A stretch of DNA of 48,781 nt, filler included, from Jimgerdemannia flammicorona (taxonomy: Eukaryota): the NCBI GenBank assembly GCA_003990765.1. It is 2 parts of 2 records of this genome, joined end to end, with 100 filler letters (N's around TTAATTAATTAA, not from the genome) between each part and the next. Parts side by side here need not be neighbours in the genome. Positions count along the whole stretch, not along the records: positions 1 to 24,343 come from RBNJ01000986.1; 1 more part is not named here. One strand, 5' to 3'. Shown piece after piece: positions 1,964 to 47,140 of this stretch. The notes under the pieces were generated by a model. The model saw nothing but the letters and a program-made list of their open reading frames with translations, did no database searches and was not told the origin of the DNA. Numbering within the stretch: position 1 is the first letter of the stretch; the number at the start of each line of letters is the position of its first letter. Position numbers and translations under genes: made by a program.

Positions 1964-3100
1964 TTTTAAAGAGTATATATAAGAAAATATCAAGATATAT
2001 ATCTAGTATAGATAGCCTTTCAGAAAAGCTTAAAAAATATTTTACAAATTTTATTCATATTTTTATTTATTTTATTTTATTTTATTTTTTTATAGTTACT
2101 TAGATTTATTTATACCTTTATTATATATCTCTTATATATAATAGAAGATCTTTTTCTCTTTAAATTTCTTATTTATCTATTTATATATTTTTAATATAAA
2201 GTAAATATATTTTTTTATATTTCTCAATCTTTAATATTAGTCTTTTTTAAACTATATATATCAGATTTTTTAATTTTATTTTTATTTTCTTATAAATATT
2301 ATATATATTATTATTTAAGTAAACTATAATGATATTAAAGAAATTATAATTAAAAGAATATAGTTATTTTTAACAGATAGTTGTAGTTTATAAAAATTAA
2401 AAGAGATATTAGTTTGATAATTTATAAAAAAAAAAAAATATAGATAGTAAAATATGAAGTATTTTCTTTATAATTAATTTTTAATATTAAAATTTTATAA
2501 CTGAATCTTTTTTTAGTTTTATTTAAAAAGTTGTTTAGTAAAAGAAATACTATTAACATTACTATAAGTATATTTATTATATATATATATATTTGAGTAG
2601 AGTAATATTATAACAGTTGATCTAAATTAGAAATAATAATTAGAGAATAGATATTTGATTATATATAGTATCTAAATCTAATTCTCAATATAGTATAGTA
2701 TTATATGTAGTTTAGCAGTCACTCAATCTCTCAGTTATATAATTTATATAATTATATAAAAAGTATAGCTATGTGAATCTCTCAGATATAATGATCTCTC
2801 ATCTGTATAAATTTTATAAATATACTAATCTCTTAACTATCCCTTAGACTATAGATAAGATCATCTTTTAAATTCATTTAGCAGACAAATTAAGATTTGA
2901 AAAAAATGATTTTTTGAAATATTGTTTTTCTGTTATATCTCAATTTGTTTAAAAAAAAAATTTTTTTTTTTATAAAATTTTTATCAAAGATAGAATTATT
3001 ATATAAAAAATTATTGGTAATTTTTTTTTAAAAGCTATTATGATTTTAAAAGTTATAAACTTTTTAAATCTTACCTCTAAATATAGATGCAAAACAGTCA
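1850..3100. repeat. Extremely AT-rich, CpG-free degenerate repeat relic
   Basis: TA-rich, almost no CG dinucleotides, (TA)n and poly-A/T runs, no ORFs. Confidence 0.6.
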
Positions 3101-3671
3101 AAGAAATAAGAAATGACTTATAGAAAAAGAAGTCTTAACTTAGCTATTATATAATTAGTAAACTTATAAAATATCTCTAATATCTTAAGTAAATAAATCT
3201 CAGATTAAAATAGTTTAAGTAAAGAGATAAGAAACTAGTAAGTCTGTAGGTAAATATACTTTAGACTCAACTATCTGAGGACTCTGAGAAGTTAAAGAAG
3301 ATCAAGTATTTAAGATAAAAAAAATCTACTATACATACTTCTACTAATATATATCTACTACATTATAACTTAGTGCTCATTGGCTGGTAATTTAAGATAA
3401 ATATCTTACTTTTAAGCTGAATAACAAACAACTACTATCACTCAAATATATACTCAAATTGAACCAGAAAATTTAGACAAGATAGATATAAGACTACTAG
3501 TATTTCATAGATATATATATCTCTGATGAATCAATCATTATCTTCCTTGATAATTTCAAACAATATACTACTATAAAAACTCTATTAGTATAACAATAAG
3601 TAGCTCTAATGCTATTCAGTCTCTGAGAACTAGCAAGAATTACATTTATAGTAGTAACTCATACTGGAAAT
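3100..3671 (+). mobile_element. 5' (gag-proximal) part of degenerate Ty3/gypsy relic A, left of the insertion
   Basis: Same CpG-free, A-rich composition as 12852 onward. Joining the two flanks gives a seamless ...GGAAATGATAATA with AT (or AATG) duplicated. The start coordinate is approximate. Confidence 0.5.
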
Positions 3672-3713
3672 GTAGCTTTCCTTCCAGGCAGGCTACGCAG
3701 TTATCTGGTTCCA
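3672..3713 (+). repeat. 42-bp terminal direct repeat, left copy
   Basis: GTAGCTTTCCTTCCAGGCAGGCTACGCAGTTATCTGGTTCCA, identical to 12810-12851. Confidence 0.97.
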
Positions 3714-4206
3714 TCTGGTCTCTGTTCCTTTTGGCTGTTACGACCATTTCCACCGATCCTTCTTGTTCGTTCCGGAAGTAGAGGGACTTGTCTCCCCGGA
3801 TCACCATTATTTCTTTTGGCCTTAGGTTGTCCATTACGGCCTTGGCTCCGAAGATGAGCGGTTTCGGAAGGACGTCCGGGATCCTTTCTTCTTCCTGTAG
3901 TATTGGGATTCCTCCGTTTACTACTACCCTGGGTTGTTGAAGGGTTTTTCGAACGGCGCTTGTTGCTTTATGCTCCATTGTGTGACTGCGTGTTGAGAAA
4001 TCGTGGTGGATATTGATGTTACCGAAGCGGGCGGTGAGCATATTTATATTCGTTGTTGTGGACCACGTGTTTGTCTGGTGATCCTTCTTCCACATTGAGT
4101 CTTGTATTTCGTCGATTTCCCTTATCAGGTCCGTTACACTGCCGATCGTTTCCTGGTTTTGGAGTTCTTCGCCGATCTCTGCTTCGATCGCGGTTATTTC
4201 TTTCAT
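3672..4206 (-). CDS. N-terminal part of element ORF2 (164 aa plus MEPDNCVACLEGKL), cut by the linearisation point
   Basis: ORF 3646..4206 ends ...RDQMEPDNCVACLEGKL and then runs into flank sequence. The same peptide starts ORF 11563..12852. Its ATG lies 7 nt after the pol-frame TGA at 4214-4216. Confidence 0.85.
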
Positions 4207-4213
4207 GGCAATT

Positions 4214-6760
4214 TCATTTCTCTTTGGCTCCTTCCTTGGCTGCCCGGAAGAAAGTATTCCACCATATTTCTGTTTCCACTTGGTCTACGGCTCCTTTCCA
4301 TGGATTCTCTGGTTGGTGGTTTTCTTTGTCGCTGTCCGATTCTTCGTTATGGACTTGTCCTTTGAATTGCTTCTGGACGCCTTCTCGTCCGTATTATTCT
4401 TCAGACATGAACGTTATCGATGTGTTTGGTGTCCACGTAGGATCTTCTTCCTGTTGTGGGTACCAGGCGGGTTCGTTCCTTGAGCTACTTGGAATCGTTG
4501 TTTCCCATCTTTGAACGTCTTGCTGCCATTCTTGTAGTGGGTTTTTGTTCCTTGATCCTTCCCATGGTCTGGGTTCTTCATTCCAGCTATTTACCATAGC
4601 TTCCTTCTTTTCTTCCCATTCTTGCCATTCTTTTGGTCCGCGGCCGTCTTTGATCGGTTTCTTTCCGTAGGGTTTTGGCCATTTTGGGAGGGTTTGTTTT
4701 TCGTAACCTCCTCTTCTTGCTATCGCTTCTTGCTGCTTGTGCTCGCTTCCTATCTGGAGGAATTCTTTCGAGGTTCCTTGTTCTTCGCAGAGCTTATTCC
4801 GCATTTTTTCGAATGGGGAATTATCTGATCGCCAGTGCGTTCCGATGTGGTGTCGCTCTTTTTCTCCACCTTTTTGTTTGCTCATTTCTTCGTTCTTCTG
4901 GCGGCGCCATTCTTGATGAGCTTCGAGGGCTTCGAATTCTCGGTTTCTTTCGGCGATTCTTTCCCTGGCCTCTTGCACTTCTTTTGGCGTCGGCGGGTAA
5001 TATGTATCGCTATCTTGGTCCGAGTCGTATTCGTTGGCTGGCCAGAGGAGTTCTTGTTGCTGGTTATCCATGCTGATGATGTTGATACTGACTTCTTGTG
5101 TTAGCTCGTTGTCCTTTATATCTTTTGGAAAGGGATCAGGTCTCCCCCCCAGGGCAACAGCCCCAGCGCGTGATAGGTAGTCTGAGAATCCGTTCTCAGA
5201 TCCCTTAATCCATTTGAACGACACATTAAGTCCTTGTAGGAAGAAGATCATCCTTCTTTCTGCCCCTGTTGGTGGTTCCGTGGAGGCCTTGCTTAGGTAT
5301 GTGTCTGGATTTGTTACCTTTGTAAGCGCTTGGTTGTCAGTGTAGATTATAACCTCCTGATTGGTCATCCAGGGGTTGGTCACCAGTGCATAATATACGG
5401 CGTATAGCTCCGCCTTTTGTTGGTTGAACAGTTCTGGCTGTTCTTTTGCCCTTTTGAACTGAACCAATTTTGGTAGGTTTCGGCTTCCTAGTCCGAGTAG
5501 TCTTGGTGGTGTGGTGGCTTGGTAGATTATCCATCCTACGCCATACGGGGATGCATCCGTATTGACTCGTATTGGTTCTCCTTTTTCCTGTAGCTCCAGT
5601 GTTGCGTGGTTGACGAGGGCTCGTTTGATCTTTTCGAAGGCTACGCATTGTTCATTTTTCCAAAGCTCTTCCAGCTTTCCTTTCTTGTTGACGATGTTAT
5701 TCTTGCATTCCATTAGTGGCGCGATTGTCTTCGTATAGTTCGGGATATAGTGGGCGAAATATCCGAATTTTCCGATGATGGCTTGAAGGTCTTCCACCTT
5801 GGCTGGTTTCGGTAGTCCTAGTAGCGACTGGACCCTTCCTGGGTCAATGTGGATGCCCTGCGTTGTCACCCTGGATCCCAGCAGTGATATTTCCTTCTGT
5901 CTTAGTGCCATTTTCTTTGGTGCGAGCTTGATGCAATGTTTTCGACATATTTTGAGGAATTCTTCCAGTGAGTAGTCGTGTTGTTGAACGGTTTTTCCGC
6001 CTCCTGCGGTGTCGTCAATGTACGATGGTGCTATCAGTTTCTTCAGCACCAACGGCTCGAATGCGTACTTCATGAATCCTTGCCATGCCCGAGGTGCGTT
6101 GTGGATGCCAAACAACATTCTCGAGGGTCTTAAGTATCTTCCGTTAAATGTCCTAACTACAAGAAGGTTCGCATGATGTGGTTCGACTGCGATATGGTGG
6201 AACGCCTTGGTCACATCTGCTTGCCAAATGTACCCTCCTTGTGAAATCTCCAAGAGTGCTTTTTGAACTTCTTGGCTTGTAGGCATTTCAAACGGTATAA
6301 GCTCCGTGCTTTGGTTGTATCCTCGATAGTCGATCACCCATCGGGGCTTGGCTTCTTTTTCCTGAGTTTCCCCTGTGGTTAACTCATCGTGCCCGCTGAA
6401 TACTAGGAACTCCTGTGCGGCCGCGAATGATTGCTGTACTTCTTCGAACCACCCGGCTTTGATCATTTCGTCATGTTCTAGTATTCTTGCTTTATAGTGT
6501 TCTTCGTGTTGCGGATTTCTTTGTGGTAACCTACCCGGGCAGTGGTAGGGTTTTCCGCCGATCTTCAGTCTTGCGATATAGGGGGGCGTTGTCGTGATGG
6601 TTTGGATGTCTTTGATGTCGTTTGCAAATACGTCCTTGTACTGGCATAGTATCTTTTCTAATTGTTTGTCTGGTGGCTTCTTTGCGAACTTGCTTAGGAA
6701 CATTTCGTCGCTCATTTGTTCGCATGATGAGCGACTTACTGAAAACTCGGCTTGAACGTC
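4214..6760 (-). CDS. pol: Reverse transcriptase-RNase H (Ty3/gypsy-caulimovirid type) with a charged C-terminal extension and no integrase
   Basis: RT motifs RWVIDYRGYN, DVTKAFHHI, MLFGIHNAP, YIDD (6011-6022), LLG. RNase H motifs TDAS, ELYAV, TDNQAL, ENGFSDYLSR. A TAA at 4394-4396 is followed by about 59 more sense codons to TGA 4214. No HHCC or DDE motif. Confidence 0.93.
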
Positions 6761-8300
6761 AGGTGCTGGTACAGGCCGGGTTCCCTGCTGGGGATTTGTT
6801 CCCAGTTTCTTCGATATTGTTCCTTGTCTTTCTCCACTGTGGTTTCCTTCGTGGGGTATTCGGTTCGTAGGGTCGCTTCTCGTTCTTGTGCGACTTGGTC
6901 TCCTACTTCTTCCACCTCAAACTTTGACTTGCTTTGTCGGTGCCATGGTTTGGCCTCCGGGGCGCGGAACTTGATTCCTGTTCGCCCTTTTTCTGGGGTT
7001 ATTACTTCCAGGCGGTTTTCGACGAAGTCAATGCTTCCGATGATTACTAGTGCCATTTTGTTGCTTCGGTCAACTTCTCCGTTGTTGAGTCTGAGCTTCC
7101 ATCCTTCAATCCCTTTTAGCGCAATCTTCTTCCAGCTGGCTCCTGTTAGTGCTGTTCCGACGGTTGTTTTGCTAGCAGCTAGGTTTATGGTTATCAGGCA
7201 GTTCTGTCCTGAACCATCTTGCTTGCGCAGTCTTCCGTCCCAGTACAATCCTTCTTTGTCTGGGTTGCCGTGTGCCATAGCCACTTGTCCCCATGGGTTG
7301 TTTCCTCGTAACGCTATGTTTCGTGGTGTGGCTGGTAGTGGAGGTGCAGCACGTTGGTAACTTGCTGGTAATTGTGTCTGTCTTCCTGCAGACGTCTGGG
7401 CCTTCCTGCGGGTTTCTACCGGCTGAAGGTCTTGCTCCTCTTCTAACGGTTGTACTTCGACTGGGATATTCCAGCATCCCTTGTCGTTGTCGTGCTCCCA
7501 ATATTCTCCTATTGGGGTAAGAGAGAGCTGTTCTCCTAGGTTCTGGCATTGGTATCCTGCCTTGGGCCTGGGAGAGGTCCTGTAATCGTGTTCCTTTCCC
7601 TTGTGTTCTTGAATTTTTGCTCTATCTTCTGCGAAGTTTGCCGGGATTTCAACTCCCTTTCGTAGGATTTTTCTTTCGCTGTAGAGGATGTCCCACCCGT
7701 TTTCTTGTAGGAATCTGTTGCCTAGTAGGAACGATGCGCTTCCTGCTCCTTTTAGTACTGTTAAGTTTATCTGGTAGTTCTGTTCCCCTACCTTAAATTT
7801 AACTTGGTGGATTCTTCCTACTACTCCTATCGGGGTTCCTCCAGCTCCTAGGAATCTTCTGTATTCTGGCTTTAGCTGATCCTTGAGTTGTAATCTCTCC
7901 AGGATTTCTTCGCTTATCACATTTTCATCGGCGGCGGTGTCGACTTTGGCTCTGAATACTTCCTGGTTTCGCTTAAGGGTCACCCATATTTGACCTATGG
8001 GGCCTGTTGCTGTGCGTTTTCCCAGTAGGTCGATCTCCGGTGCTTGCTCGATGACTTCAAGGTAGTTGTCTGATTGGTATTCCCAATCTTCGTCGCTTGA
8101 AGGTTCGTTTATCTCGTGGATTTCTTCACCTAGACGTTCTTCTTCTCCTTCGCTGTCGACTTCGATTTCATATGTTCTTTTTCCTACGCGTTTTGTTCTT
8201 CCTGTCCTGAAGAACCTTCGCTTTCTTCCGAAGGAGACCTTTCGTGTACCTTTCTTGTGGAACGGTTTATCTTCCTGAGGGTCGTCCACGTCCATTGGTC
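6736..8300 (-). CDS. Gag C-terminus, retropepsin-like aspartic protease and spacer domain
   Basis: PMDVD motif, an R/K-rich tract, AKVDTAADENVIS (DTA at 7933-7941), flap GAGG and FLLGNRFL, all in ORF 6736..8550. Confidence 0.85.
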
Positions 8301-9286
8301 TTCGTCCTCCTTTATCTCGCCAAATGCTTCCACCGGCATTTCTTGTACTTCTTCTGCTGCTGGTCCGGATTTTTGGTATCTTGTTCTGGCCCAGTAGCTT
8401 CTGTTGTAATTCGTTCGGATGGTACCTTCTTGTACTGCTGCAACGAATTTTCCTTTGAAGATGTTTAAGCAGACATCTAGAACTTGTGCTGCTGTTGTTG
8501 CTGGTGTTGTTGTGAGCATTTGGTTTTGTCGGTAATGATATGGTAACCATTCCGGCATTTTTCCTAAGATAAACTTTTCTTGCGTTGTAAAGGTGTCTTT
8601 TGTTAAGTCCGCGATCCTCATTCGAAGCTCCAGTTGCGTGTTGAAATGCTGCATCTCGTGGATGCTTTGTGCGTTGGACCTTGGGAAGTTATAGAGTTCT
8701 TCCCTTATGATTGTGATTTGTTCTGCTCCGAAGAACTTCTCGTATATTAGGAGTCTTAGTCCTTTTCGTGTTCCTACGGCGTCTGTGTAGGTCATCCAGC
8801 TTAATGGTTTTTCGTGGTCTGCCATATTTTTGCTGAGAACGTCGTTTACGAGCCATGCTCTTGGAACCTGGAACCGACCGCTGCTACTAGTCTGTAGCTG
8901 TATGATTTTGCTGGGTCGTCTTTGTTTTTCGGATCTGCCCAGTATCCGACTAGGTATCCTGCAGCTAGGTATGCGAGGTCCACTTGTCCCACAAATGCTG
9001 GGACTTCCATTGGATTTCCGGTGAACGGTTTTATGTTGTCGAAGATTTTTATGCTTCCCGGAAGCGTCATGTTGACTGGTCCTTCGATGTCTACCGGTGT
9101 GTCGTCTGGTGGTGGTTCATGCGGAGGATGTTGTGGGTTCTTTTTATGATCATCCTCATCCTCGAAGTTCGAGAATATTGCTCCTGCAATCTTCTCCTTT
9201 TGCTGCTGGTTTAGTGCCGCCCATGAGCTTTTGTTGACATTTGGTAGGAATGCTCCTACGAAGTTTATGGAATCTCGGGGCGTCAT
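8184..9286 (-). CDS. gag: Retrotransposon-type capsid (Gag) domain, split by a frame break near 8860
   Basis: IKPFTGNPMEVPAFVGQVD (ORF 8846..9391) continues in the -1 frame as RAWLVN...LIYEKFFG...REELYNF...SIHEMQHFNTQL...KFILGKMP (ORF 8184..8825). This matches the general Ty3-type capsid pattern. Confidence 0.7.
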
Positions 9287-11185
9287 GTTTGTAGTCGTTG
9301 TAGAATTGTTGTGATGGGTTGTACTGTGGTGTTGGTCTCGACTGTCTCCTTCTTCTGATGCCGAAGGCAATGTCGTACATGCTCCATCCATACTGTTGAG
9401 CCCAATCGCTTCCTGGTAGGTCTCCTGTTTCCCAGTCGTTTGGGAAGTTTGGAATTCCTCCTATTCCATGGTCCTTCTGATAACAGGACATTGTGGCGAT
9501 TATGATGTCCAGAATCCTCATGTACATGTCGTCTCTTGGGTAGTTTTTTCCACCATTTGGTGAGTCTACTGAGTCTGAGGCTTGCCATGATAGGGATGCT
9601 TGGAGAAATGTTACTGTTTCTCCTCCGTTGTCGGGGTCATCCCATTGCCATTGGATTCTGGGTTCCTGCCTTCTCGGACTTGGAGATCTTAGTCTTGTGT
9701 TTCGGTTGTTTGGTGGTCTTGGGGGTTCTCCTCCAGCTCCTACTGCCGTTCTTCTTGGTTGTGGTGGTGTTGTTCTGGTCAACCTTGCTAGGATCCTTTC
9801 AGCTTCGCTTGCCGTGTCTCTTGTCCCTTCAACTCTTCTGAGCAGTTCTTCATTTTCTAGTCTCGCTCTTTCTCTGCTTGCTTGGAGTTGTTGCGCGGCG
9901 TTATTATCCAGTCTTTGCCTGACTCTTCCTACTGGAAGTGCGTTTCTTTGTGTTTCTTCCGTTACTGGTGCAAACGGGTTTGGCTGAATCCGCGATGCTC
10001 TGGGTGTTTCTTGCATTATTTCTTCCCATGGATTTGCCTGTCGGTTTGTTACTGTTGCAACATTCGTTCTCAGTGGTTGCCTTCTGGTTTCTTCCAGTGC
10101 TGATCTAATTTGTTGCGCTGTTCTGGCAATTATTCCAGGGTTTGCCGCTTTTCTTTGCCCTAATCTTGCTGTTGCTGCGATTATATCTTCCGCCGTTGTT
10201 ATTCTGTTTCTCCCTATTTCCTGCAGTTCTTCTACTGCTTGGGAGTTTGGTGAGAGCATTCTTGGTATAGCTGTCACCGTGGATGATCCTGATTCTTGTG
10301 GTCTGGGCCCGGCGGGAGGTTGTATTTTGAAGTAGATTTCTGGTACTTCTTCTGCTCCAGTCCATTCGCCGTTTGTTTTCTTTAGCCATGCTGTCAGTCT
10401 GTTTGCTTGTGATATTCTTTCCTTTGGCCAGTCGAATTTTCCGAGTATGTATTCGAAAATTTTTATCTGTAGGGAGGTCGCTGATCCTCCTCCGGCTGCC
10501 GATATTGCGTGTATTATTCTTAACGGTATCTCCTTGAAGTGCCCTCCTAGTTGGTTTGCTACGAAGATGGCGTAGTCATATTTGATGGGCGGCCTTCTTT
10601 TGACTATTGTTTTCACCTTTGCATATCCTTCCGAGAGGAAGTCTGATACTTCTTCGGGGATATCTTCGAACTTGTTGTTTCCTTCTTCGAAGGACTTTCT
10701 CCAGAACGACGTCCATCTTGATGTTCCGACCATGTGTCTGGTCCTAAGCGTGGTCTCGCTTGGGGCATCTACCGTTTCTCCATCTGACTGATGTGTTGGT
10801 ATTGGTTCTCCATGGATCGTGTCTTCTGCTTCTTGTAGTCGGGTTCTTGTAAGCTCCGGCTCTGGTGGTTCCATTGGGCTGACTGGTTCTGAGGTATTAA
10901 ACCAGTCTTCCATCTCCGGTTGCTGGTATGTTGCTACCTCGATCCTTGGCCTTCTTCCCGAGTGGGTGGTCATACTTTCTGACCTCTTTGAACGTTGGGA
11001 GCGTTCTTCTCGGCTGCTTCGGCGGCTTCTGACTTCTTCCTCAAGCTCTTGGATCCGAGCTTGTTGTTGGCGGACTAGGCGTTCCATCCGCTGGTCGGTA
11101 TTTCGTCCGTCCTGCTGACGGGTTCAGGGCTGGCATTGGTTTCGTCATTAACAATGCTTTGGATGATTCTTCCAACTTGCGACAT
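9156..11185 (-). CDS. Large N-terminal ORF of the element, function unknown (coiled coils, R/P/Q-rich)
   Basis: 643-aa ORF 9156..11087. A likely true start ATG at 11185 (AAAAATG, MSQVGRIIQS) is in another frame and overlaps it. Confidence 0.7.
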
Positions 11186-11278
11186 TTTTCTTTTACTTGT
11201 TGAGTAAACCTTTGATCCTCCGGACCGATTCAATTCAGTATCTAGCGGCTAGGCCAGGGGTAAGTCTTATGCTTCCAC

Positions 11279-11567
11279 TGAAAATTGACTCTTGAAGTCT
11301 CGAGGCTAAGCTTTAAGTACACCGGTCAACGTGTGCGCGAAGCAGCTGCGTAGGTAGTGTAGCGTAAAAGCTATTGTGGGGTTTATTGGGTTTGTAAAAG
11401 GGTGTGGAATTCGAGTTCCAATACACCTGTATTTATACATTTGTTTCGACCTCTTGGTCCTGACTATTTGCAAGAGATATTGACAAATTTCGTCGATTCC
11501 TTCTTTGCAGCACATTTTGCCTTGTGACTTTCTTTTCGCCTAGTTATTCGGCGAAATGACCGTCACA
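11279..11567 (-). promoter_or_regulatory. Single LTR-like control region (U3-R-U5-like)
   Basis: On the minus strand, in order: purine tract GGGGAAGTGGGGAA (11585-11572), TGTGAC (11567), TATAAATA (11437-11430), hairpin GGTGT-ATT-GGAA..TTCC-ACACC (11427-11401), AATAAA (11387-11382), ...TTTTCA (11279), then G-TGG (candidate PBS, 11277). It is the only long non-coding stretch of the element. Confidence 0.7.
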
Positions 11568-12851
11568 TTGATTCCCCACTTCCCCAGATACTTGATCCCC
11601 ATTCTGCCGGATCATCTGGGCTTACCAAAATCGCTTGTTGTTCTTCTTCGGATGGTACTCCTCCGGTTCCTTGGATCAGGAGATTCCAGTAGAGCTCTTG
11701 TTCTCCGATTAGTTTTCTTAGGATTGGGATATCGTGAGCTGCTATCCTTGTGATCATGCTTGCCGTTAGTCCTTTGACTTGACTGATGAATTCTTCTCCC
11801 ATTCCTTCCAGGAGTCGGTGGCATGACTTGATTTTGGCCTTGATCCAATCCTTCTGCGTTTTGGTCATCTTTTCTTTCTTGACTTCCTCGATTTGTCTGG
11901 AGACCTTCTTCATGATTTCCTTCATTGCGAACATTCCGGCGCTTTCTTCGTTTTCCCCGTTACTCTGGAAGTCCGTTTTCTTGTTTTGCCAGATCTTTCC
12001 TAGTTCCAAGAAGCATTTGATTGCGCTGACGCTTGTTTCGTCTGCTCTTTTTTCGAAGTTTAGTGCCCTCATTACTAGGTAGGCTTCTTGATCAGCAAAT
12101 TCTCCGTTTGCTAGGTCTTGCGTCGTGATTTCTAACCATCCTGCGGCGTGCCATACTCGGATATTTTTGAAGCAGTTCAGGACTCTTACTGCACTTGTTC
12201 CTAGCTTTGCTTCTGTGGCCAGTAGTTCCTCCATGCTCGGTAGTTCTTCTACCATATTCCCTATGGTTACCGGTGTTTCTTGGATTTCTACCGGCTGCGG
12301 TTGCAGTTGCTCTTCAATTTCCTCGTTTGTCCAGATTCTTACTTCAGGGATTTCTTCCGGTTCTTCCTCGCTGTCGATATCTGCATCGCTAGCGACCGGT
12401 TGTGCTCGTAGGTTTCTTGAGATCCTTCTTGCTCTGGTTCTTCGTGCTCCGACTGCTCGTCGTATTTCCCTTAGCTCGTTGACTTGGTTTTGGAGATTTT
12501 GCGCCAGTTCCGCATCTTCCCTTGCTTCTCTTTCCAAGTCGTTGTAGCTGTTTTGAATCATTACTGCGTTCCATTCCAACGTTTTGATTCTTGCTTCCAT
12601 GTGGGCTAACATCGCTTCCTTGGGTATCTCCATTACCGGTTCGTAGCAGTATAGGCATACTCCTCCGATGGTTTCCTCGATCGGGAGTCGGATGCTATTG
12701 TGTTCTTCTTCCCCGATTTTGCGTTTCTTGTGATTTGCATATATCATACCTAGGCACCTGGTATGGATACTTTTGTCGCAATGTGGGCAGTTGAAGAGTG
12801 AGTCTTCCGGTAGCTTTCCTTCCAGGCAGGCTACGCAGTTATCTGGTTCCA
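11563..12851 (-). CDS. C-terminal 429 aa of element ORF2: PHD-type (C4HC3) zinc finger, coiled coil, acidic linker and helical domain
   Basis: CVAC-x12-CPHC-x4-H-x2-C-x32-CLYC. No ATG remains at this end (TTG at 12852 arises from the flank). The frame is continuous with 4206->3715 on circularisation. Confidence 0.85.
12810..12851 (+). repeat. 42-bp terminal direct repeat, right copy
   Basis: Identical to 3672-3713. Confidence 0.97.
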
Positions 12852-15800
12852 ATGATAATACTATAATACTAGTAGTACAGAAGACCTGATTGCAAACTAT
12901 CTACTATATAGATAAAATCAAGCAGATCCTGAAGGATTAACTCAATAATATCTATCAAGAAATGAATAAAGACCCAAATATCTTTTATATCTGAATCTAC
13001 TATTAGATAATTTTGACTAATTATACTAATGTTATCAAAAATCAAGTAACTAAAACAATCTTTATAAAAGGAATTCATCTAGAGATAGTTATGGTAATTT
13101 AATCAATACTAATAGTTCTAAACTTAATATAGAAGGTAACTTATGCTCAGTGATATTAGATAGTCAGATATCCTCAAGACTATATAATAGAGAGAGTTAC
13201 AAAAGTCAGAATTGAAGTATTTAAAGTAACTAGTATAATTTCTACAACTATAATCAATTAAAATACATCTTAACTAAAGACTACAGAGTAATAGAGAAAT
13301 AGTGATCCTATAGAGAAACTTGTTAAGAAGTTTGCTAAAATAACTACTTATCTGAGAAATATAATAAAGGAAATCAGAAAAAGAGATTGTTGTCCAGTTC
13401 AGAAGTTTGCTACTACTATAGACAAGAAGAGAGAAATCTACTATATATATAGAGAAGAAGGTCACTACTCTTATAAAAATATAAGTGAGACTAAGTGTAA
13501 GGTCCAGCTAAGTAATACTATATATCAGAAATTGTAAATAGATCAATACTATTACTTTTAAAGAGATTGGAGATTCAAAAAAAGAAGAAAAATAGAAAGC
13601 TTATTCAGCCCTCATCTTTAAAAAGAATGTCTACCAGAAACCCTATAAGAGGCCACCAGGAAGATCTAAGAAGAAAGTAGTAGAACAGTCTGTGAAAAAA
13701 TAAATAGAAGTATCTATAAAAATTAAAATCATAGCTGAGAAAATAGATCAAGATATAGAGCTTAAATAAGCAGTTAAAGATCATCTAAGGCAATACTTCT
13801 ATCAGTAAAGAGAAAAAGAAGAAAAAGCTACAAAAGAGTAAAATCTTTAAGTATAATATCTTCAAGGATTTTAGCTAGTAAAAAGTCAATATAATCTTTA
13901 AATAGTTAGTAGAAATTTCTATCTTCAGATAATAAAAGAGACTGAGACTTACAGAAACAGTTAAGAATCAAGAGTAGAAGATAGTTGAGACTAATAATAT
14001 ATAGAATAATTCAGATAAAGAAAGTGAAAAAAATAACTACAAGATCTCTATCTATCTATCTATCAGATTGAAGATAGGATCTTTGAAGCTATCATTGATA
14101 TAAGAGCAGAAGAATGCTTTCTCAGTAAAAAAGCTATAGATTGTCTAGATTGGAAAATTGAAGCTATGAAATTAGTATTCATTACAGTAGATGATACAAG
14201 AGCTACCTCTCTAAGAAAGATTCGGGATATCTCTATTAAGTTTAAAGGAGCAATTATTCTAGTAAATATGATTATTATAAATACTATTAATTATAACATC
14301 CTCATTGATAATCAGTAGCTTCATAATGCTAAGATTATAATTGACATAAACTCCCAGAAGATACAGATTATCTATTAAGGACAAAAGATGTAAATTCTCA
14401 TCAATATCAATAAAGAAGTACTCTCTGAAATAGAGAAAGAAGACAGTAAGCAAGAAGAAGCCTATATGATAACTACTTAAAAGAAAAAGAAGAAGATTGG
14501 ATAGATTAGTAAAAAAGATTGATTACTAAAGAATATACTCTATTAGGAGTATATCTTTATAAAATTCAAATATACTATATGAAGTATATAGATGAGTACT
14601 ATTAATATATTACTAAGATCTATAAGATTCTTTATAAGAAGAAGAAAAGAAGACAGAAGTAGTAAGAAAAGGAAGATCAGAAGAATGAACTACCAGCCCT
14701 CCTAGAGGATAGTGATAATAAAGAATAAATCAAGATCAAGATTTATTTCTATATAGTTCTATTAGAATATAAGTCAGAAAATATAGGAATAGATATTACT
14801 ATTCCCAAGAACTATATTGAAATACTCAAGATAAGAAATAGCCTAGCTAAAAGGAAATTTTTTATTAAAGGAGAAGTTATTAATTCTGATTATATTAGAG
14901 AAATCTTACTTATTACTAGAAACCACAACTCTACAATTCTATTTACAGTTAAGAAGAAAGACTGATTTATATAAATGCTGATTTTTTTAATACTATAACT
15001 CAGGATTTTGGAAGTCAAGAAGCTGGAGGAAATGGAAAGAGAAAGGAGAGGATTTGGATCTACAAAAAGAGAAGTTTTTGACAGTACTAAAATTACTAAA
15101 TTAGATCACAAAAAGGATAAAATCACAGTCAAGTATAGCTATACTATTAGAAATAAATTTCTATTCAAAAAAAAACTCAAGAAGTTACTATATGAATTTG
15201 AGAATATTCTTGCTACTGATTTTAAGAATATCAAAGAAAAGACACCATACTATTATTATGATATAGATATAGAAGATACTGAGCCAATCTATCAAAGAAT
15301 AAGACCAATTCTACTAGTATATTATAAATAGCTCAGAGGAAATCAAGCAGATAGAAGAAGCTAATATCATTAAGGAGACTATTAGTTCTTAGTTATTACT
15401 AATCATACTAGTTTCAAAAAAAGAAAGCAAGCTAGGAGAATTTACTTCAAAGCTCTATACAGACTATAGAAAACTGAATGAAGTTATTAAGAAGAATTAC
15501 TAATTACTATCTCTTATTAGTGATATTCTAGTGATATTAAAAGATAAAGCATAATATTACACCATCTTAGATTTATACTCAGGATTCTATCAAATTAGCC
15601 TTATTAGAGAAGTTAGCAAAAAGCAGCCTTCATTATCTCAGATAGAACTTATGTCTATTTATGAATACTATTTAGAATATATAATTCCCAGTAAGTTTCT
15701 AGAGAATAATAAACAAGATTATCTATAATAAGATAACTAAGAAATATCTAAACTATATTTATTGAATCCTACAGAAACTAAAAGATCATGATCTGTTCAT

Positions 15801-18300
15801 CAAGCCAAAAAAGTATAAGTTCAGCAAAATTGAGATCTTCTACCTTGAGCATATCATTAATTAAAATAGAACTCACACAGACCATATTAAGATTCAAGTA
15901 GTTGAAGTCTCTCTAAGACTTACTATAGTTATTAAAACTCAAGCCTTTATAGGACTTACTACTTATTATATATAGAAGATTTATTAAAGAGTTCTGGTCT
16001 CATTTATGAATTATTCAAGAAAGATACTAAGTTCTAATAGACTGATAGATAATAATAAGTATTTAAATATCTCATGGTTTATTTGACTCAGATACTCATC
16101 TTAAGAAGATCTGACTGGTCTTAAGAATTTATTCTATAGACAGATACAAGCTCAATTAGACTAGAAGTTATTTTTATAAAAAAAAAAAATAAGATCAAAT
16201 ATATGATTATATATCTCAGCTAAAGAACTCATAGAGAAGAAAGAGAATATAAATTCTACAAGCTAAAGTATCTCACAATTATCTAGACTATAAAAAATTT
16301 TCACTACTATCTTACTAGAAGATACTTCACTATTCTAACTAATTACCCAGCTCTTATCTAGTTATTGACCACTAGTCAACTTAAAGAAATATTTATCAAA
16401 TAGATTATAAAACTATAAGCCTATAATGCAACTGTCATATATTACTTAGGAAGAAATAATATTAATATAGATATACTCTCACAGATATTCTAAAATGAAT
16501 AAGAAATTTTACTATAGAATTATTATCTATTTTTTTTTTTTTTCTTTTAAAGTCACTTGGACTTCCATTTATTACTACTCAATCTATAAATAATACAACA
16601 TATATACCCACAATCCCTCAGCCAATGCCCCTCAGATCCCTCTCTCTACTTGTTATTTTTTTCTGCTGAAGGATAATTCAGTCACCTACCACCTGAACTC
16701 TCCTGCCACTCTTCTTACAAATACAATTTACTAGATTCTGATGGCCCCCCCTATCTGGTCCCCACCCTCTCCACTATCCATTCAAAATGTCTAGTATTAA
16801 CCATTCTCAATGTGCTATCTTAGCTTCAATTGCAATCTGCCAGCCCTTTTCAAAGACATAAAGTCAATGACTGACCATCTCTATCCAAATTGCCAGGGTC
16901 TATCCTAAGGTCAATCATTTATCTCCCACTCTACCCACTAATCTTTGCCTGAGGTCTTCCCATCTCCCTCCTTCCCCACCCATAGAATTATCATCTATCT
17001 GAGACAGTAAATGATCTGAAAGAATGAATATAAACAATTATTAATAGAAGCTGAAAATAATTTGAAACTGATAGAGAAATACTAAAGAAAGAAAAACTAC
17101 TAGTTATATCAAAGTATAAGAAGAAATAAGTAATGAAATTAGTATATAAACTTGGCTATCTAAGAGGAATAAATATCTATAATAAAACAAGAAGAATAAT
17201 GTGATGGTCTAAAATAGAAGAAGATATCAAATAATTTATCAAGATCTATAATAAATATTAGAAACAGAAGTAAGATTAGTGAAACCAGATACCAGAATTA
17301 GTAGATATAGAATCAGTACTATTTGATCACATTATAATAGATATAATTAGCCTACTACTCTTAATATTGACTAGTAACTAATATATTATTATCATTATAG
17401 ACCTCTTTATGAAATAAATAGAAGTAAGATCTCTCAAAGAAGTCAATATACAGTTAATTGCTAATTTTGTTTATAGAGAAATCATCTGTCAATTTAAGAC
17501 TCCAAAGTAAGTAACAATAGATAGAAGAATAGAATTTATAAACTAGCTCTTTGAAGTTTTATATGAGAAGTATAAGATTTAGTATATTTAAACTACAGCC
17601 TATTATTTACAGAGAAATGAACAGACTAAAAGAACTAATAAGATACTTAAAAATATTATTACTAAGATCTGTAATAACTATAAAAATTAGGACTATTATC
17701 TATCAATAGTATTATCTACTCTTTAGGATATATAATTATAAAGTATCTATTTTATCTCTTAAAAATTGTTATTTAGAGAAAAAAGTTCTAAAAAAACTCT
17801 ACTATCTAATAGAGATACAATATAGAAATATTTAGATACTGAGATATAGAGATTGTACCAATAAGAAAGAGGGCTAATGATTATATAATCAAGCAATAGA
17901 ATAATATATAGAAAATATATAAGTTTCTAGAGATTATCAAGATAAGAGATAAAGTTTTAATATATTAGAGTATACATAGTAGAAGCTTTATAGTCATAAA
18001 AACTAAAGCTCAATTAAGAAAGATCTCATATTATACAAAATATAAAAGAAACTACTTTTAACTATGAAAACTAATAGGTACAATTATCCTCACTACTATT
18101 TACTAAAACTGACTTAAGAAGTACTATAGCTAATCAATAAAGTACTGCTCTAGCCCTCAAGATTATAAGTATTACTTAGTAAACTATAAAAAGACAATAA
18201 TATTCTACTAAGCTATCAGTTATAGAGGAATTCTTTAAAATATCAAAGTATTATATAGACTCATCTATTATGAACTTTATACTTTAGAGTCTACTAATAT
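12852..18300 (+). mobile_element. Degenerate Ty3/gypsy relic A (gag-PR-dUTPase-RT-RNaseH-integrase)
   Basis: Transition-decayed motifs. PR: AIIDIRAEECFLS (~14090). dUTPase: GEVINSDY..RGFGST (14870-15063). RT: LDLYSGFYQI (~15570). RNase H: TDTSS (~16140). Integrase: IDLFMK*IE, TIDRRIEF, TAYYLQRNEQTKRTN (17400-17650). The end coordinate is approximate. Confidence 0.85.
16531..16981 (-). mobile_element. 5'-truncated LINE 3' end with poly(A) and 17-bp TSD, nested in relic A
   Basis: Poly-T followed by AGTCACTTGGACTTCCATTTATTAC, resembling AGTCGCTTGGACTGCCCTTTATTAC at ~24137. Flanked by ATAGAATTATTATCTAT (16514-16530) and ATAGAATTATCATCTAT (16982-16998). Confidence 0.85.
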
Positions 18301-18835
18301 TATACTAAGTTTTATGAGTACTTTAAGTTGAGAAAATTACTAAATAAAAAAAATATAATCAAAAAAGAATAGATTATAGAGTACTAGATATCCTATATTT
18401 AGATCACTATAGTCAAGCAGATCTATAAACTATTTAAGAATAACTATAACAGTTCTAGTTTCTTTAAGAGAAAGTAGCTAAATCTAAAAGTTCTAGTTGG
18501 CCTAAAGTAGCTTGAAAAGATACTTAAAGGATTTCTGGGAGAAAATATTCTTTGCTTTATTTAGACAAAGAAGAGAAATGCCAAGAAATAGGTTCTCAGC
18601 AAAGCTGACTAATACTATTCTACAATGTTCTGAAAGGTTCCATGATTAGCTAAGATAAGATACTTAGTACTAAAAAAAGACAAAAATATTTTAGTAGTGT
18701 CTGGGTACCAAGAGAAGGTTTTTAAGCAAGTAGAGAGTAGCAGAACATAGTAGAATATTCAAGAAATGATAAGAAAAAACTAACTAAAAGATGCAAAAAT
18801 GTACTAAGACTAAATATGATTGTGAAATTATTACA

Positions 18836-21800
18836 TCTCTCTCTCTTTAAGAACCAATGTCCTTATTGAGTTCTTAGGTAGCATAAGACTAGATATACTT
18901 AACCAAAATTTCTCAAACTTGTATTAGTATATTGGTGGGAATTGGCCATCCTTGTATAGGACAGAGGGCCTATTATCAGACTAATCAACTGGAAGTAGTT
19001 TGAACTCAGCTAGTAGCTTCATTTTAGTAGACTTCTTATTCATTAAATATTCTGCTAGTTCCAGGGTCTCAAAGTAAACTTCCAATATATAAGGCATTGA
19101 TCATTACTATAGATTGTCAATAATCTAAGGAAGTCACTACAGAGATTGGGTAATGTATTTTGCCTTAAAGTCTTAAACTAGATCTTGAGAGTTCTTGAGG
19201 TTGACCAGTGGTTCCCAGGTAGTATTATATTTAGGGTAACCCATCTACTTGACTAGGTATTCAGGACAGTGGTAGCAGATTTATTTGTCAAGAATTTTCT
19301 CAGCTTCATACTCAATATGATCTTCAATAATCACAGAGATAGAGGGCTTAGAAATTTGACTAAGGTAGGGCAGTAACTAGTTCCAGGTCTTGAGATGTGA
19401 TATATAAAAGACCAGGTATACTCTCATGGTTTCAGATAGCTTAAGACAGTAGAAGAATGCAGAGACTTATTCAGTAATATTGAAAGGTCTAATATACTTA
19501 GATTGAAACTTGTTCAAAAGATGGTTGACTTGAGATTGTATCTTGAGGTTCTCAGTAGACAGTAGGACTTGATCTCTAATAATGTAAGTGACATTACAGT
19601 GATTCTTATTAATATACTTAACTTGATGCTATTGAGCCTTCTGAAGATTTATGGTAGCAATCTTGAGTAGTTTGTCTATTTTATCTGTAAAGTTCTTAGT
19701 GGTTGAGACTTATATTTGACTGCTTTTCTTGAAAGAGAATAGACTTATAGGGGTCTTGGAATCTTGACCATAGAGTAATTGGAAAGGGAAAGACCAGTAG
19801 ATAATTAGATAGTATTGTTGTATATAAACTTCACATAAATCAGGTAGTAGTTCCAATTATCTTGCTCATAAGAAATATAGTTTCTAAGCATTTATTCTAG
19901 AGTTCTGTTCATGTGCTCAGTTTGTCCATCAGTTTGTGGGTGAAAGGTGATAGACATAGCCAATTGGGTTCCCAGAGTCTTGAAGAGAGTTTGTCAGAAG
20001 TAACTGGTGAACTTGAGGTCATAATTGCTGACAATTACTCATGATAGGCCATAGTGATAGAAGATGGACTTAAAGAAGATTCTTGCAATCTCAGATGTAG
20101 TAGCATTGGTAGTAGTTGATTCAGTAACCATAGTCTTGGTCAGGTGGTCAATGAATATGATGATAGCATTAGTATCAGATTGAGTTTGTAGTAGTTGAGT
20201 TATAAAGTCTATGGTAACTTGCTCAAATTTTTTAAGAGGAATTGATAGTAGTTATAGTAAACTAGCTAGTGCTTAGATGGTAGACTTGTTATGCTGACAT
20301 AGATCATAGCTGGCAATATAGTTCTTGATTTCCTTGACCATACTTAGCCAATAGTAGTGATATTGAATGTTCTTAATAGTCTTCTTAATTTCCAGATAAC
20401 TGGTAAGAGGGAAGTCATAGTGTTCTTATAAAACCTTGTAGTATAGATTTATATTTTCAGATAGATAAACTTGATCTTGATGATAGATCAGATTGTTCTC
20501 AACAGTATATATCCTTGAGCTTTGTTCAAGAAAACTCTAGTGGTAACTATGTTTTCTTTATAAGCTTGTCTGATTTGGTCTAAGAATTCTGATGCCAAGG
20601 TAACCTGTATGATTGTGGTGAGGTCTAGGCATCTTGATAAGACATTTGGTATAATAAGTATCTTGCTAGGCTTGTAGATGATTGTTGGGTTGAAGGTTTG
20701 AAGCTTGAGACTCTACTTGGCTTATAGATGTGATAGAGTAGGTTGGGTGTTAATATACTTAAGAGATTGATGATCAGTGATAACATCAAACTCAATATCT
20801 TCTAAATAGCATTACTAGTAGTCTAGTGTATGTATTATTTCCAGTAGTTTCTTCTCATAAGTGGCTAGCTTTTATTTAGCTAGGGTCAACTTGTGGGACT
20901 CAAAAGCAATAGGATGATGTTTTTTGCCATCACTTTGTGATAGGACTGCTCCAATGGCAAAATTCAATACATCAGTAGTGACTATAAATTTTAAGCCTTA
21001 ATCTGCATTATACAGAACTAGAGTATAGATCAGACAGTTTTTGAGTTCTTGAAAGGCTTGTTGACAGAAGAGGTCCCAGGTATAGAATACATAGTAGTCT
21101 GAGTGTAGGTTCTTCCTTATGAGGTTAGTCAGTGGCTTAATAATGCCAGAGAAGTTTCTGATAAAGTAGCAGTAGTAGTCAGCTAGACCAAGGAAGGATC
21201 AGAGTTCTGTGAGATTTGACAGAATAAGCTATTCTTTAATTGCTTCTATCTTGTATGAATCTACTTGAATTCCTTGTCCAGAGACAATATAGCCAAGGTA
21301 TTCAACTTGTTTCTTGAAGAATTCACACTTCTTGAGCTTAGTATAAAGCTTGTGTTTTCACAGGATCTCCAGGACTATTCAAATGTATTTGAGATATTCT
21401 TTTTTAGTTGCACTAAAGATCCGGATATCATCAAGATATACCAACAGAAAAATAAATAATTGGTCCTTGAATATCTTATTCATCAGAGTCTGAAATATGG
21501 CAGATGTATTGGTGAGATCAAATACTAAGACCAGGAATTCATAGAGTCCAAAGGGGATTATAAATGCAGTCTTGGGAATGTCTTCTGGCTTGATTCAAAT
21601 TTGGTGATATCCTGACATAAGATCTAACTTAGTGAAGTACTTGGCATTCTTATGAGTATCAAAGATTTGATCAATTAAGAGTAGTGAATAGCAGTTCTTA
21701 ACAATGAGTTTATTGAGTACATAGTAGTATATATATATTTGCAAGATGCTATCCTTCTTCTTGATAAATAAGACTGGTGAGCCATAAGGAGATTTGCTTG

Positions 21801-21990
21801 GCTGAATGGCTCCTCATATAAGTAGTTCTTCTAGTTCTTTCTTGACTACTTCAATTTTAAGTAGTGATATGTAGTACATATGTTTCTTAGGTAGTACAGC
21901 TCCTGGAGTCAGTTTGATTTTATGATCAACTTCTCATATAGGTGGTAGATCAGGTAGCTTGTCTAGAAAGACATCCTTGAATTCTTCTAT
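18836..21990 (-). mobile_element. Degenerate chromovirus (Ty3/gypsy) pol: RT-RNaseH-integrase-chromodomain, 5'-truncated
   Basis: SPYGSPVLFIKKKD (~21780), LVYLDDI (~21430), FHPQTDGQTE (~19930), chromodomain EYEAEKILDK..EYLVK*MGYP..TWEP..NL (19200-19315). PPT-like AAAGAGAGAGAGA followed by TGTAAT at 18835. Confidence 0.9.
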
Positions 21991-22029
21991 AGTGTACAGT
22001 ACCTTAAATCAACCATATGTTATACAAAA

Positions 22030-24343: not shown

Positions 24344-24443
24344 NNNNNNNNNNNNNNNNNNNNNNNNNNNNNNNNNNNNNNNNNNNNTTAATTAATTAAN
24401 NNNNNNNNNNNNNNNNNNNNNNNNNNNNNNNNNNNNNNNNNNN
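24344..24443. other. Artificial 100-nt gap spacer (N44-TTAATTAATTAA-N44)
   Basis: A six-frame stop linker centred in Ns. Confidence 0.95.
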
Positions 24444-27400: not shown

Positions 27401-28070
27401 ACGGACACCATACAACCTCCAGCCCTGACCAGACATCTGCTCCCCAACACTCTGCTGTTAGAACCCAGTCAATCCTGGAGTCCAGCCCTGCTGCCCAGTG
27501 GGTGTACACCCGCCGATCAGCCCAGAAATGTCTCCCCAAGTCCACTAGAGAACTCAACCTCTTCGTCTCCAACCAGTCCCCCAACCCACCACTCTCACCC
27601 CACATGCCTCTCCCTCCATCAGTTCTGTCCAACTTCTTATCCCATACTATGTTGAAGTCACCTTCCATATAGTCCAATCCAACTCCTCCCAATATACCAG
27701 CCTCTTTTAATTGGCAAATCCAATCCACCCTCTCCCCTCTCTCAGCTGGGCAGTAACAAGACCCAACCATCAGCAGGCCTCACCCCAGCCTCCTCCACAC
27801 TCCCCACACCATCTGAGACCCCCAATGTCCAATGTCCCCAATGTCCCCCATCCCTTTCCGAACAAGAATACACACTTTCCCCCTCTAAACTGCTGCACCC
27901 CTCCATTCCTTAGTCTAGTCCTGTAAGTCCACTTCCGCCTCATAACGAACATCCTGTAACAAAAAGAGGTCTGCATCCACTCCCTTGAGCCAACCAAATA
28001 TATACTTCCTCCTAGCCACCTTCTGTAACCCATTAATGTTCAGTGAGAAAATCCTAGTTATACTGTTCAT
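24444..28070 (-). pseudogene. LINE ORF2 (AP endonuclease plus RT), frameshifted and with stops
   Basis: Endonuclease: SLNINGL, GDFN, SRIDWVL. RT: PGEDGLP, WPIMLLDMDRKL, GVPQGD, FADD (~25955), YLGI. Confidence 0.9.
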
Positions 28071-28143
28071 ATTGAAGAAATATTTCAACAAAGACCCCAA
28101 TCTATAATTCCATACTCATCTCATCTCCCACCAGATCCAAGCA

Positions 28144-29994: not shown

Positions 29995-30029
29995 ACCAGT
30001 TCAATCATTGCCATCTATGTTGCTAGTCG

Positions 30030-45700: not shown

Positions 45701-45740
<40 letters not shown>

Positions 45741-47040: not shown

Positions 47041-47140
47041 GCTTAATTGAACCTTTTCTCTGAATTGAACCTTTTCGCTGAATTGAAATTTTTGCTGAAT
47101 TGAAATTTTTGCTGAATTAAAACTTTTCGCTGAATTGAAA
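47041..47140. repeat. Minisatellite, ~17-19-bp unit GCTGAATTGAA(C/A)(C/T)TTTT
   Basis: About six imperfect tandem copies. Confidence 0.85.

What the first reader, a model, noticed from the sequence alone, without database searches (positions are those of the whole stretch)
11186..11590. Single internal LTR-like region with TATA upstream of the poly(A) signal
Seen on the minus strand: PPT GGGGAAGTGGGGAA, TG (11567), TATAAATA (11437), a hairpin over the expected start site, AATAAA only 50 nt after the TATA, CA (11279), TGG, then ATG 11185. Known: TATA followed by a poly(A) signal gives a terminally redundant, more-than-genome-length RNA only from a circle or a two-LTR provirus. Inference: the linear copy here cannot make a complete pregenome unless it recircularises. 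The candidate PBS (TGGAAGCATAAG) matches no tRNA I can recognise, so the priming mode is open.
Basis: partly seen in the sequence, partly recalled or inferred. Interest (0 to 1): 0.75.

Follow-up and report, generated by a model that had tools for sequence, protein, structure and literature searches.

The report
Pararetrovirus-like circular element in a fungus
The region is the promoter and RNA-end signal of a 9-kb reverse-transcribing element with no detectable integrase that seems to multiply as a free DNA circle in a root-associated fungus and gets trapped in chromosomes only by accident, a way of life so far described for plant and animal viruses.

Summary
TATAAATA, the 23 nt after it and AATAAA (50-51 nt on) are kept in 4 of 4 copies in this genome. 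The 'PPT' is the last codons of a gene, TG is not conserved, and the 'PBS' fits no host tRNA found and sits in a helix with compensatory changes. The region is the only intergenic stretch of a 9.14-kb element (Gag-like, protease, RT-RNase H, PHD-like finger) with no detectable integrase or movement protein, in an Endogonales-type fungus. The window copy is one unit, cut inside a gene, with a 42-bp terminal overlap, inserted into a host repeat whose empty sites exist. A second unit-length copy is cut elsewhere; two partial copies keep the same circular order; no solo or two-LTR copy was found. Copies differ mainly at silent sites and keep their CpGs (o/e 0.82-0.85 against 0.06-0.33 in host Ty3/gypsy). 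Best reading: chromosomal fossils of an episomal, pararetrovirus-like retroelement that is not a caulimovirid. Free circles, RNA ends and the primer are not shown. A conserved G-rich tract after RNase H (5157-5139) is the better PPT candidate.

The parts
3672..12851 (-). One unit (period 9138 bp) of the element, circularly permuted, cut inside ORF2
   Evidence: GC 47% against 18-26% in flanks; the two ends are contiguous in copies C604 and C3743
12810..12851 (-). 42-bp terminal repeat, left copy; element-derived, coding (start of the PHD-like finger)
   Evidence: identical to 3672-3713; absent from empty host sites
3672..3713 (-). 42-bp terminal repeat, right copy; 2-3 host bases are duplicated outside the two repeats
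   Evidence: contig of run X1 spans 3495-4088 with no difference
11563..12851 (-). C-terminal part of ORF2: PHD-like Cys/His finger (about 12837-12640), coiled/helical region, stop at 11565-11563
   Evidence: Pfam PHD E 0.0011, below cut-off, in C604
11572..11585 (-).
   Evidence: same peptide, synonymous and pyrimidine changes in C3743 and C782
11430..11437 (-). TATA box, TATAAATA
   Evidence: 4 of 4 copies
11406..11428 (-). 23-nt invariant block over the expected start site; weak hairpin; its first 10 nt can also pair with the poly(A) signal
   Evidence: its 22-mer occurs 4 times in the genome at up to 2 mismatches, each inside a long copy
11382..11387 (-). Poly(A) signal AATAAA
   Evidence: 4 of 4 copies; one X1 contig of a related copy ends at 11380 (weak)
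11308..11372 (-). Leader stem-loop 1; inner helix 11361-11356 with 11323-11318 shows a two-pair compensatory change
   Evidence: predicted separately in 4 of 4 copies
11217..11305 (-).
   Evidence: outer helices in 4 of 4 copies; U-A to C-G change in C782; folding z-scores not significant
6736..11185 (-). ORF1 (about 1450 codons in C604; 4 frameshifts here): unknown N-terminal domains, Gag-capsid-like region about 9100-8380, aspartic protease about 7974-7705, unknown beta-rich domain
   Evidence: first ATG after the TATA box in 4 of 4 copies lies 242-284 nt on
6735..6750 (-). ORF1/ORF2 overlap, ORF2 in the -1 frame; probable frameshift site
   Evidence: nearly invariant in 4 of 4 RT-bearing copies
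5198..6352 (-). Reverse transcriptase (YIDD at 6022-6011) and RNase H
   Evidence: Pfam RVT_1 E 6e-13, RT_RNaseH_2 E 1.6e-9
5139..5157 (-). 19-nt invariant stretch with a run of 7 G just after RNase H: candidate plus-strand primer (PPT)
   Evidence: only run of 5 or more G in the window copy; 4 of 4 RT-bearing copies; 2 of the 3 Gly codons that are GGG in all four, among 55 conserved Gly
3672..5197 (-). ORF2 after RNase H: about 500 codons of no known family where Ty3/gypsy has integrase; one frameshift near 4210; second TATAAATA at 4048

Best explanation
The region 11186-11562 is the single control region of a circular, integrase-less reverse-transcribing element (Ortervirales-type Gag-like capsid, protease, RT-RNase H) of an Endogonales-type fungus; it works like a pararetrovirus. 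Shown here: anatomy, conserved signals, permuted copies, junctions, no detectable integrase. Inferred: on a nuclear DNA circle Pol II starts about 11410-11400, passes AATAAA while it lies only some 20 nt from the cap, goes round once and ends about 11365-11350, giving a 9.2-kb RNA with a 40-60-nt terminal repeat; ORF1 is read from the first AUG (11185), ORF2 by a -1 shift at 6750-6735; the two leader stem-loops serve packaging and/or priming; minus-strand priming does not use a tRNA 3' end at the proposed site (primer unknown; a structure-dependent start in the leader is my guess); plus strand is primed at the G-rich tract after RNase H; the product is a circle again. Chromosomal copies are dead-end captures at double-strand breaks by end joining, opened at arbitrary points. 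The window copy is such a capture and has since decayed.
For: Two unit-length copies (9138 and 9113 bp) cut at different points inside ORF2, each in a host repeat with empty sites; two partial copies with other ends; order ORF2 end - control region - ORF1 in 4 of 4; control-region 22-mer only 4 times in 231 Mb, so no solo or two-LTR copy seen; junctions with 2-3-bp duplication (window) or microhomology plus filler (C604), no shared end sequence; no integrase by Pfam or by profiles of about 210 integrases that do detect a decayed host integrase in a flank; 221 of 285 differences between window and C604 in 505 RT-RH codons are at third positions; CpG o/e 0.82-0.85 in 5 of 5 copies against 0.06-0.33 in 5 of 5 host Ty3/gypsy RT regions and 0.00-0.03 in the flanks; both window junctions seen in separate sequencing runs.
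Against: No free circle, particle or RNA end was observed. About 1,500 residues of ORF1 and ORF2 have no known family and both structure models failed (pLDDT 34 and 37), so a very divergent integrase or recombinase is not excluded. Only 2 unit-length copies. Leader folding energy is no better than shuffles (z 0.06, -1.49, -0.31, +0.98). The G-tract did not stand out in a 12-codon scan of silent sites. One gene-like region of the window (40500-46500) also has CpG o/e 1.09, so CpG retention shows escape from repeat methylation or recent arrival, not episomal life as such. RT placement is unresolved.
Confidence: 0.7

Rival explanations
1. An LTR retrotransposon with an unrecognised or borrowed integrase (or recombinase); the copies seen are stray one-LTR circles captured by end joining, while normal two-LTR proviruses are missing from this fragmented assembly.
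For: Gag-like + PR + RT-RH layout with a -1 shift is Ty3/gypsy-like; best RT hits (at most 33% identity) carry integrase; assembly has 35,354 contigs; integrase-independent transposition is known for Tf1 (cited in PMC10377300).
Against: 0 of 4 control regions lie at a copy's end; no solo copy; no conserved TG...CA inverted ends; copies are 5-25% apart with silent-site divergence and intact CpG, so no methylated chromosomal master is in view.
Confidence: 0.17
2. One reading: PPT at 11585, LTR 11567-11279, tRNA primer at 11277.
For: Motifs are in the canonical order; the purine run is intact in 2 of 4 copies; CA is kept in 4 of 4.
Against: Run follows codons; TG not kept and TGG is CGG in C782; no match of 9 nt or more to the 3' end of 56 distinct tRNA sequences in the intergenic region of any copy; host initiator tRNA pairs 7 of the first 8 nt and then fails; direct genome searches for a tRNA ending in either candidate gave 1 chance hit (control 1, not a tRNA) and 0.
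Confidence: 0.07
3. Rearranged piece of a tandem array of a chromosomal retrotransposon, or an assembly artefact (42-bp k-mer overlap of a circular contig).
For: Tandem arrays also give ORF2 - LTR - ORF1 order; terminal overlaps of this size arise in graph assemblies (own knowledge).
Against: Flanks join directly in empty sites (5 of 7 loci examined show both flanks adjoining; 3 of 3 for C604); no array found; an X1 contig crosses the right junction without a difference, and spliced contigs of X1 and X2 link element and left flank.
Confidence: 0.04
4. An endogenous plant caulimovirid, by transfer or contamination.
For: Size, circular permutation and lack of integrase fit (PMC10377300); CaMV-type RT is among the three nearest solved structures.
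Against: No movement protein, no capsid/zinc-knuckle match with profiles that find 24 and 26 control ORFs; RT outside the caulimovirid-type clade, support 99 in two trees; no tRNA-Met site; flanks are this genome's own repeats.
Confidence: 0.02

Closest known systems
Caulimoviridae and their endogenous copies
   Same: 7-10-kb circular map, protease and RT-RNase H, no integrase, one intergenic region with TATA before the poly(A) signal, chance capture by end joining or microhomology (PMC10377300 passages), internal G-rich PPT candidate (PPT habit recalled)
   Different: Fungal host; no movement protein; no CCHC knuckle; no tRNA-Met binding site; protease in ORF1 and RT behind a -1 overlap; PHD-like finger; RT outside the clade
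Metaviridae (Ty3/gypsy LTR retrotransposons), incl. self-priming Tf1/sushi
   Same: Gag-like capsid (Atlas lead 0.94, only 122 of 256 features shared), PR-RT-RH order, highest RT scores
   Different: No integrase, no terminal LTRs, no conserved TG...CA ends, no fixed target duplication; no 11-nt self-primer match (best 6 contiguous pairs in the window copy, not kept across copies); RT only 24-33% identical
Hepadnaviridae / nackednaviruses (recalled)
   Same: Circular template, poly(A) signal close behind the start and skipped on first pass, no tRNA primer, accidental integration
   Different: Ortervirales-type RT, protease and Gag-like capsid; no terminal-protein domain or DR1/DR2 pair detected; the hairpin is far smaller than epsilon
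DIRS/Ngaro tyrosine-recombinase retroelements (recalled)
   Same: No DDE integrase, no tRNA primer, circular intermediate, present in fungi
   Different: Has a protease; no recombinase found; no split or inverted terminal repeats; copies are cut at different points rather than at one att site

Membership tests
Caulimoviridae | Aspartic protease and RT-RNase H, no integrase | tested here: met
Caulimoviridae | 30K movement protein (invariable per PMC10377300) | tested here: not met
   no Pfam hit; profile from 20 caulimovirid-type polyprotein N-termini best E 0.62
Caulimoviridae | Capsid protein with CCHC zinc knuckle | tested here: not met
Caulimoviridae | tRNA-Met primer site | tested here: not met
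Caulimoviridae | RT within the family's clade | tested here: not met
   27 references; 10 of the 27; references labelled by me from size, start motif, RT and lack of integrase; long-branch caveat
Caulimoviridae | Encapsidated circular dsDNA, episomal replication | not testable with these tools
   only indirect: permuted copies
Metaviridae (Ty3/gypsy) | DDE integrase after RNase H | tested here: not met
Metaviridae (Ty3/gypsy) | Two terminal LTRs with TG...CA ends and target duplication | tested here: not met
Metaviridae (Ty3/gypsy) | Gag capsid domain | tested here: inconclusive
Metaviridae (Ty3/gypsy) | tRNA, half-tRNA or self-primer binding site after the LTR | tested here: not met
   nuclear Leu, Ser, Tyr, Trp, Pro, Glu tRNAs were not in the 56-sequence set but were covered by the two pattern searches
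Metaviridae (Ty3/gypsy) | RT nested in the family | tested here: inconclusive
   gypsy rows form one side against element plus caulimovirid-type rows with support 78 and 19
DIRS/Ngaro | Tyrosine recombinase; no protease; split or inverted repeats | tested here: not met
Hepadnaviridae | Terminal-protein priming with epsilon and DR1/DR2 | tested here: inconclusive
   no Pfam TP hit, no shared repeat longer than 8 nt between control region and body; protein priming itself cannot be tested here

The most novel reading that the evidence does not exclude
These are fossils of the first fungal pararetrovirus: a separate, deep Ortervirales lineage that gave up (or never had) integrase independently of Caulimoviridae, persists as an encapsidated or plasmid-like circle in coenocytic hyphae without a movement protein, and primes reverse transcription without a tRNA.
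Probability: 0.45. Interest if true: 0.9.

Novelty: new variant of a known kind. Interest (0 to 1): 0.76.

Why it matters
A 2024 mycovirus review states that pararetroviruses have not been reported from fungi (PMC11371549, passage), and the origin of the integrase-less Caulimoviridae is open, with unsampled Ortervirales lineages named as a possibility (PMC10377300 section 2.6). An integrase-less, Gag-bearing, circular retroelement in a plant-root fungus is either a second, independent route from retrotransposon to episomal virus or a relative of the missing intermediate. Its primer is also unexplained, which would be a new way to start reverse transcription if no tRNA or Tf1-type self-primer is involved.

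Tried and rejected
Rfam scan of 3000-13500: one chance hit, E 4.9. ARAGORN on the window: none. Relatives outside this genome: word-index search gave only the three near-identical proteins above 30% identity among 8 hits; phmmer over 1.84 billion representatives gave nothing above 33%, the top scores coming from predicted proteins with repeated RT domains; ORF1 480-940 against shorter proteins: 0 of 3549 candidates; IMG/VR and metagenome scans: none. NCBIfam, PHROGs, Atlas on ORF2 C-terminus: nothing usable. Two single-sequence AlphaFold models were too poor for a fold search, which was not run. Internal tRNA match of 11 nt to an organelle-type tRNA-Thr in 3 of 4 copies: at chance level for the number of comparisons, rejected. 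No RNA holder is on record as RNA; X1 and X2 are guessed RNA, supported by GT..AG joints; contig depths were not used to rank regions; the uncovered bin 10564-10947 says nothing. The codon-position count was out of register and is discarded; one search replaces it. Earlier findings of this scan: nothing in 3 look-ups. Literature searches that found no description of such an element: (open-licence library only).

Full report
Observation. Every motif named is at its place on the minus strand. The stretch 11186-11562 is the only long non-coding part of an A-rich block of 47% GC (3672-12851) set in DNA of 18-26% GC. The exact TATAAATA-AATAAA pair is rare in shuffles (0 of 500 for the region, 1 of 500 for the element; a loose version 11 and 99 of 500), though the pattern was chosen after the fact.

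The element. The block encodes an aspartic protease, RT and RNase H. It ends in an exact 42-bp direct repeat, 3672-3713 and 12810-12851, period 9138, which lies inside a reading frame. A search of the own genome found three more long copies (C604, C3743, C782) and two fragments (C20889, C15988) at 66-79% identity. In C604 and C3743 the two ends of the window copy are contiguous, and C604 has two uninterrupted frames, 1479 and 1395 codons stop to stop, the second cut near its end by that copy's own breakpoint. The map is thus a circle: control region, ORF1 (Gag-like, protease, unknown domain), ORF2 in the -1 frame (RT, RNase H, unknown region, PHD-like finger, helical region), back to the control region. 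Against C604 the window copy has four frameshifts in ORF1 and one in ORF2; an X1 contig covers the ORF2 shift without a difference. The near-identical database proteins are labelled Jimgerdemannia flammicorona, an Endogonales fungus (PMC11134847 abstract in listing for the order; genus placement recalled).

How the copies sit. The flanks of the window copy are a host repeat found on dozens of contigs. In 5 of 7 such loci examined the two flanks adjoin, without the 42-mer; the insertion duplicated only 2-3 host bases. C604 is also one unit (9113 bp between 10-bp repeats), cut about 1 kb away on the map; 3 of 3 empty sites examined show a 5-6-nt microhomology and filler bases at the joint. C3743 is cut in ORF1 and lacks about 585 bp; C782 lacks RT-RNase H. 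In 4 of 4 the control region is internal. Its invariant 22-mer occurs four times in 231 Mb at up to two mismatches, always in these copies: no solo and no two-LTR form was seen, with the caveat of a 35,354-contig assembly. An X1 contig crosses the right junction and spliced contigs of X1 and X2 link element and left flank, so the arrangement is not an assembly artefact. Integrase was not found by Pfam or by two profiles built from about 210 integrases of session hits, which did find a decayed host integrase beside C3743. No recombinase was found.

Signs of life outside the chromosome. Between window and C604, 221 of 285 differences in 505 RT-RNase H codons are at third positions, with 40 residue changes; pairwise identity among four copies is 79-95%. 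All five copies measured have CpG o/e 0.82-0.85, whereas five host Ty3/gypsy RT regions have 0.06-0.33 and the flanks 0.00-0.03. So the copies diverged under selection for function before insertion and their lineage has not lived long in methylated repeats. This fits a replicating episomal population; recent arrival from elsewhere would also fit.

The control region. In a four-copy alignment conservation peaks at 11440-11401 (38 of 40 columns), 11380-11361 (19 of 20), 11320-11301 (18 of 20) and 11240-11221 (17 of 20), and is low at 11560-11481 (21 of 80). TATA box and AATAAA keep 50-51-nt spacing, and no ATG lies between them and ORF1, so there is no upstream-ORF leader of the caulimovirus shunt type (recalled). 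TATA before AATAAA is the normal LTR order (PMC3601003, passages seen). A contig of X1 whose indels match C3743 ends at 11380, just behind AATAAA (my inference, weak). The 'PPT' encodes the end of ORF2 and varies with the codons; TG is lost in C782. The 'PBS' reads TGGAAG, TGGACG, TGGACG, CGGAAG. No 3' end of 56 distinct tRNA sequences (from 62 loci; 54 of the 62 Rfam matches were fetched or given, plus 2 initiator genes) matches any intergenic region over 9 nt or more; pattern searches for a tRNA gene ending in either candidate site gave one non-tRNA hit, equal to control, and none. A Tf1-type self-primer (mechanism per PMC6317226, passages seen) is not evident. Folded one by one, all four leaders give the same two stem-loops, with a two-pair compensatory change in the first and a U-A to C-G change in the second, which contains the 'PBS'. 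Against this, folding energies are no better than shuffles (z 0.06, -1.49, -0.31, +0.98), and four related sequences give few independent changes. The better PPT candidate is a 19-nt invariant stretch with seven G at 5157-5139, directly after RNase H, in 4 of 4 RT-bearing copies, where glycine is otherwise mostly GGA; it did not reach the threshold of a 12-codon silent-site scan.

Mechanism. Shown: the map, the signals, the permuted copies, their junctions, no detectable integrase. Inferred from pararetrovirus biology (recalled; lack of integrase and capture by end joining per PMC10377300): a nuclear circle is transcribed from the TATA box, the cap-proximal AATAAA is skipped once and used on the second pass, the short terminal repeat allows the strand transfer, and plus-strand synthesis from the internal G tract closes a new circle. 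Coenocytic hyphae would make a movement protein unnecessary (inference). The primer for the minus strand is unknown; I favour a start that depends on the leader structure, at low confidence.

Comparison. RT-RNase H scores alike against Ty3, CaMV-type and foamy-virus structures (51, 47, 43 bits). Nothing above 33% identity exists outside the near-identical records among 1.84 billion representatives. In trees with 32 or 24 integrase-bearing hits (of 45 drawn; chosen for likeness to the query, a bias) and 27 or 10 caulimovirid-type contigs (labelled by me), the element sits on a very long branch outside the caulimovirid clade (99) and unresolved against Ty3/gypsy (78, 19). Movement protein, caulimovirid capsid and CCHC knuckle are not found. 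The ORF1 middle resembles retrotransposon Gag by language-model features only. It therefore works like a caulimovirid but fails membership there, and fails Metaviridae and DIRS tests as well.

Novelty. Eight literature searches listed no such element; the library lacks most subscription papers. PMC11371549 (passages seen) says pararetroviruses are unreported in fungi; PMC10377300 (passages and section 2.6 seen) leaves room for unsampled Ortervirales near the origin of Caulimoviridae. No supplements were read. Verdict: real feature, partly misread; control region of a new integrase-less, circular retroelement lineage in a fungus; best explanation 0.7; interest 0.76; new variant of a known kind, with a 0.45 chance of being the first fungal pararetrovirus lineage with non-tRNA priming.

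Noticed in passing
window 4048-4041 (minus): Second TATAAATA inside ORF2, kept in 3 of 3 copies that hold the region, using the less common Asn and Ile codons; a possible internal promoter for the PHD-bearing C-terminal part, like the CaMV 19S promoter (recalled). An X1 contig begins at 4088, which is no proof.
   Followed up: partly
window 12798-12911 (plus): GT..AG intron spliced in contigs of both X1 and X2: an antisense RNA crosses the left junction; further plus-strand GT..AG joints at 12076-12174 and 12238-12334 in X2. May be a silencing trigger or a host-recruited antisense transcript.
   Followed up: partly
G000:C782:9029-10225: 1.2-kb insertion with a poly(A) tail and a 13-bp target duplication inside ORF1 of the divergent copy: a non-LTR retroposition into the element.
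   Followed up: partly
G000:C3743 about 4200-5000: The C3743 copy sits next to a decayed Ty3/gypsy integrase on the opposite strand; all examined copies lie in or beside host repeats.
   Followed up: partly
genome-wide: The 11-mer around the element's TATA box occurs 3875 times against 294 for its reversed control: a common host promoter or repeat motif that the element matches.
   Followed up: no
window 13000-24000 and 25000-32000: Strong CpG depletion (o/e 0.02 and 0.2) against 1.09 at 40500-46500: repeat-directed methylation and decay. 25000-32000 is a GC-rich, C-skewed element with a weak ZCCHC3-type hit, possibly a LINE-like repeat.
   Followed up: no
window 41464-42156 and 44265-45326 (plus): Tyrosine/serine-threonine kinase domain (E 4e-22) and a weak JBP1 DNA-binding-like hit (E 0.0018). 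These lie beyond the N gap at 24344-24443, off the contig that holds the element.
   Followed up: no
window 47017-47144 and 48507-48677: Short tandem repeats of 17-18 and 49-59 bp.
   Followed up: no
L049 (G000:C22171), L048/L058 (G000:C12139): Clusters of organelle-type tRNA genes on small contigs, probably mitochondrial DNA or its nuclear copies.
   Followed up: no
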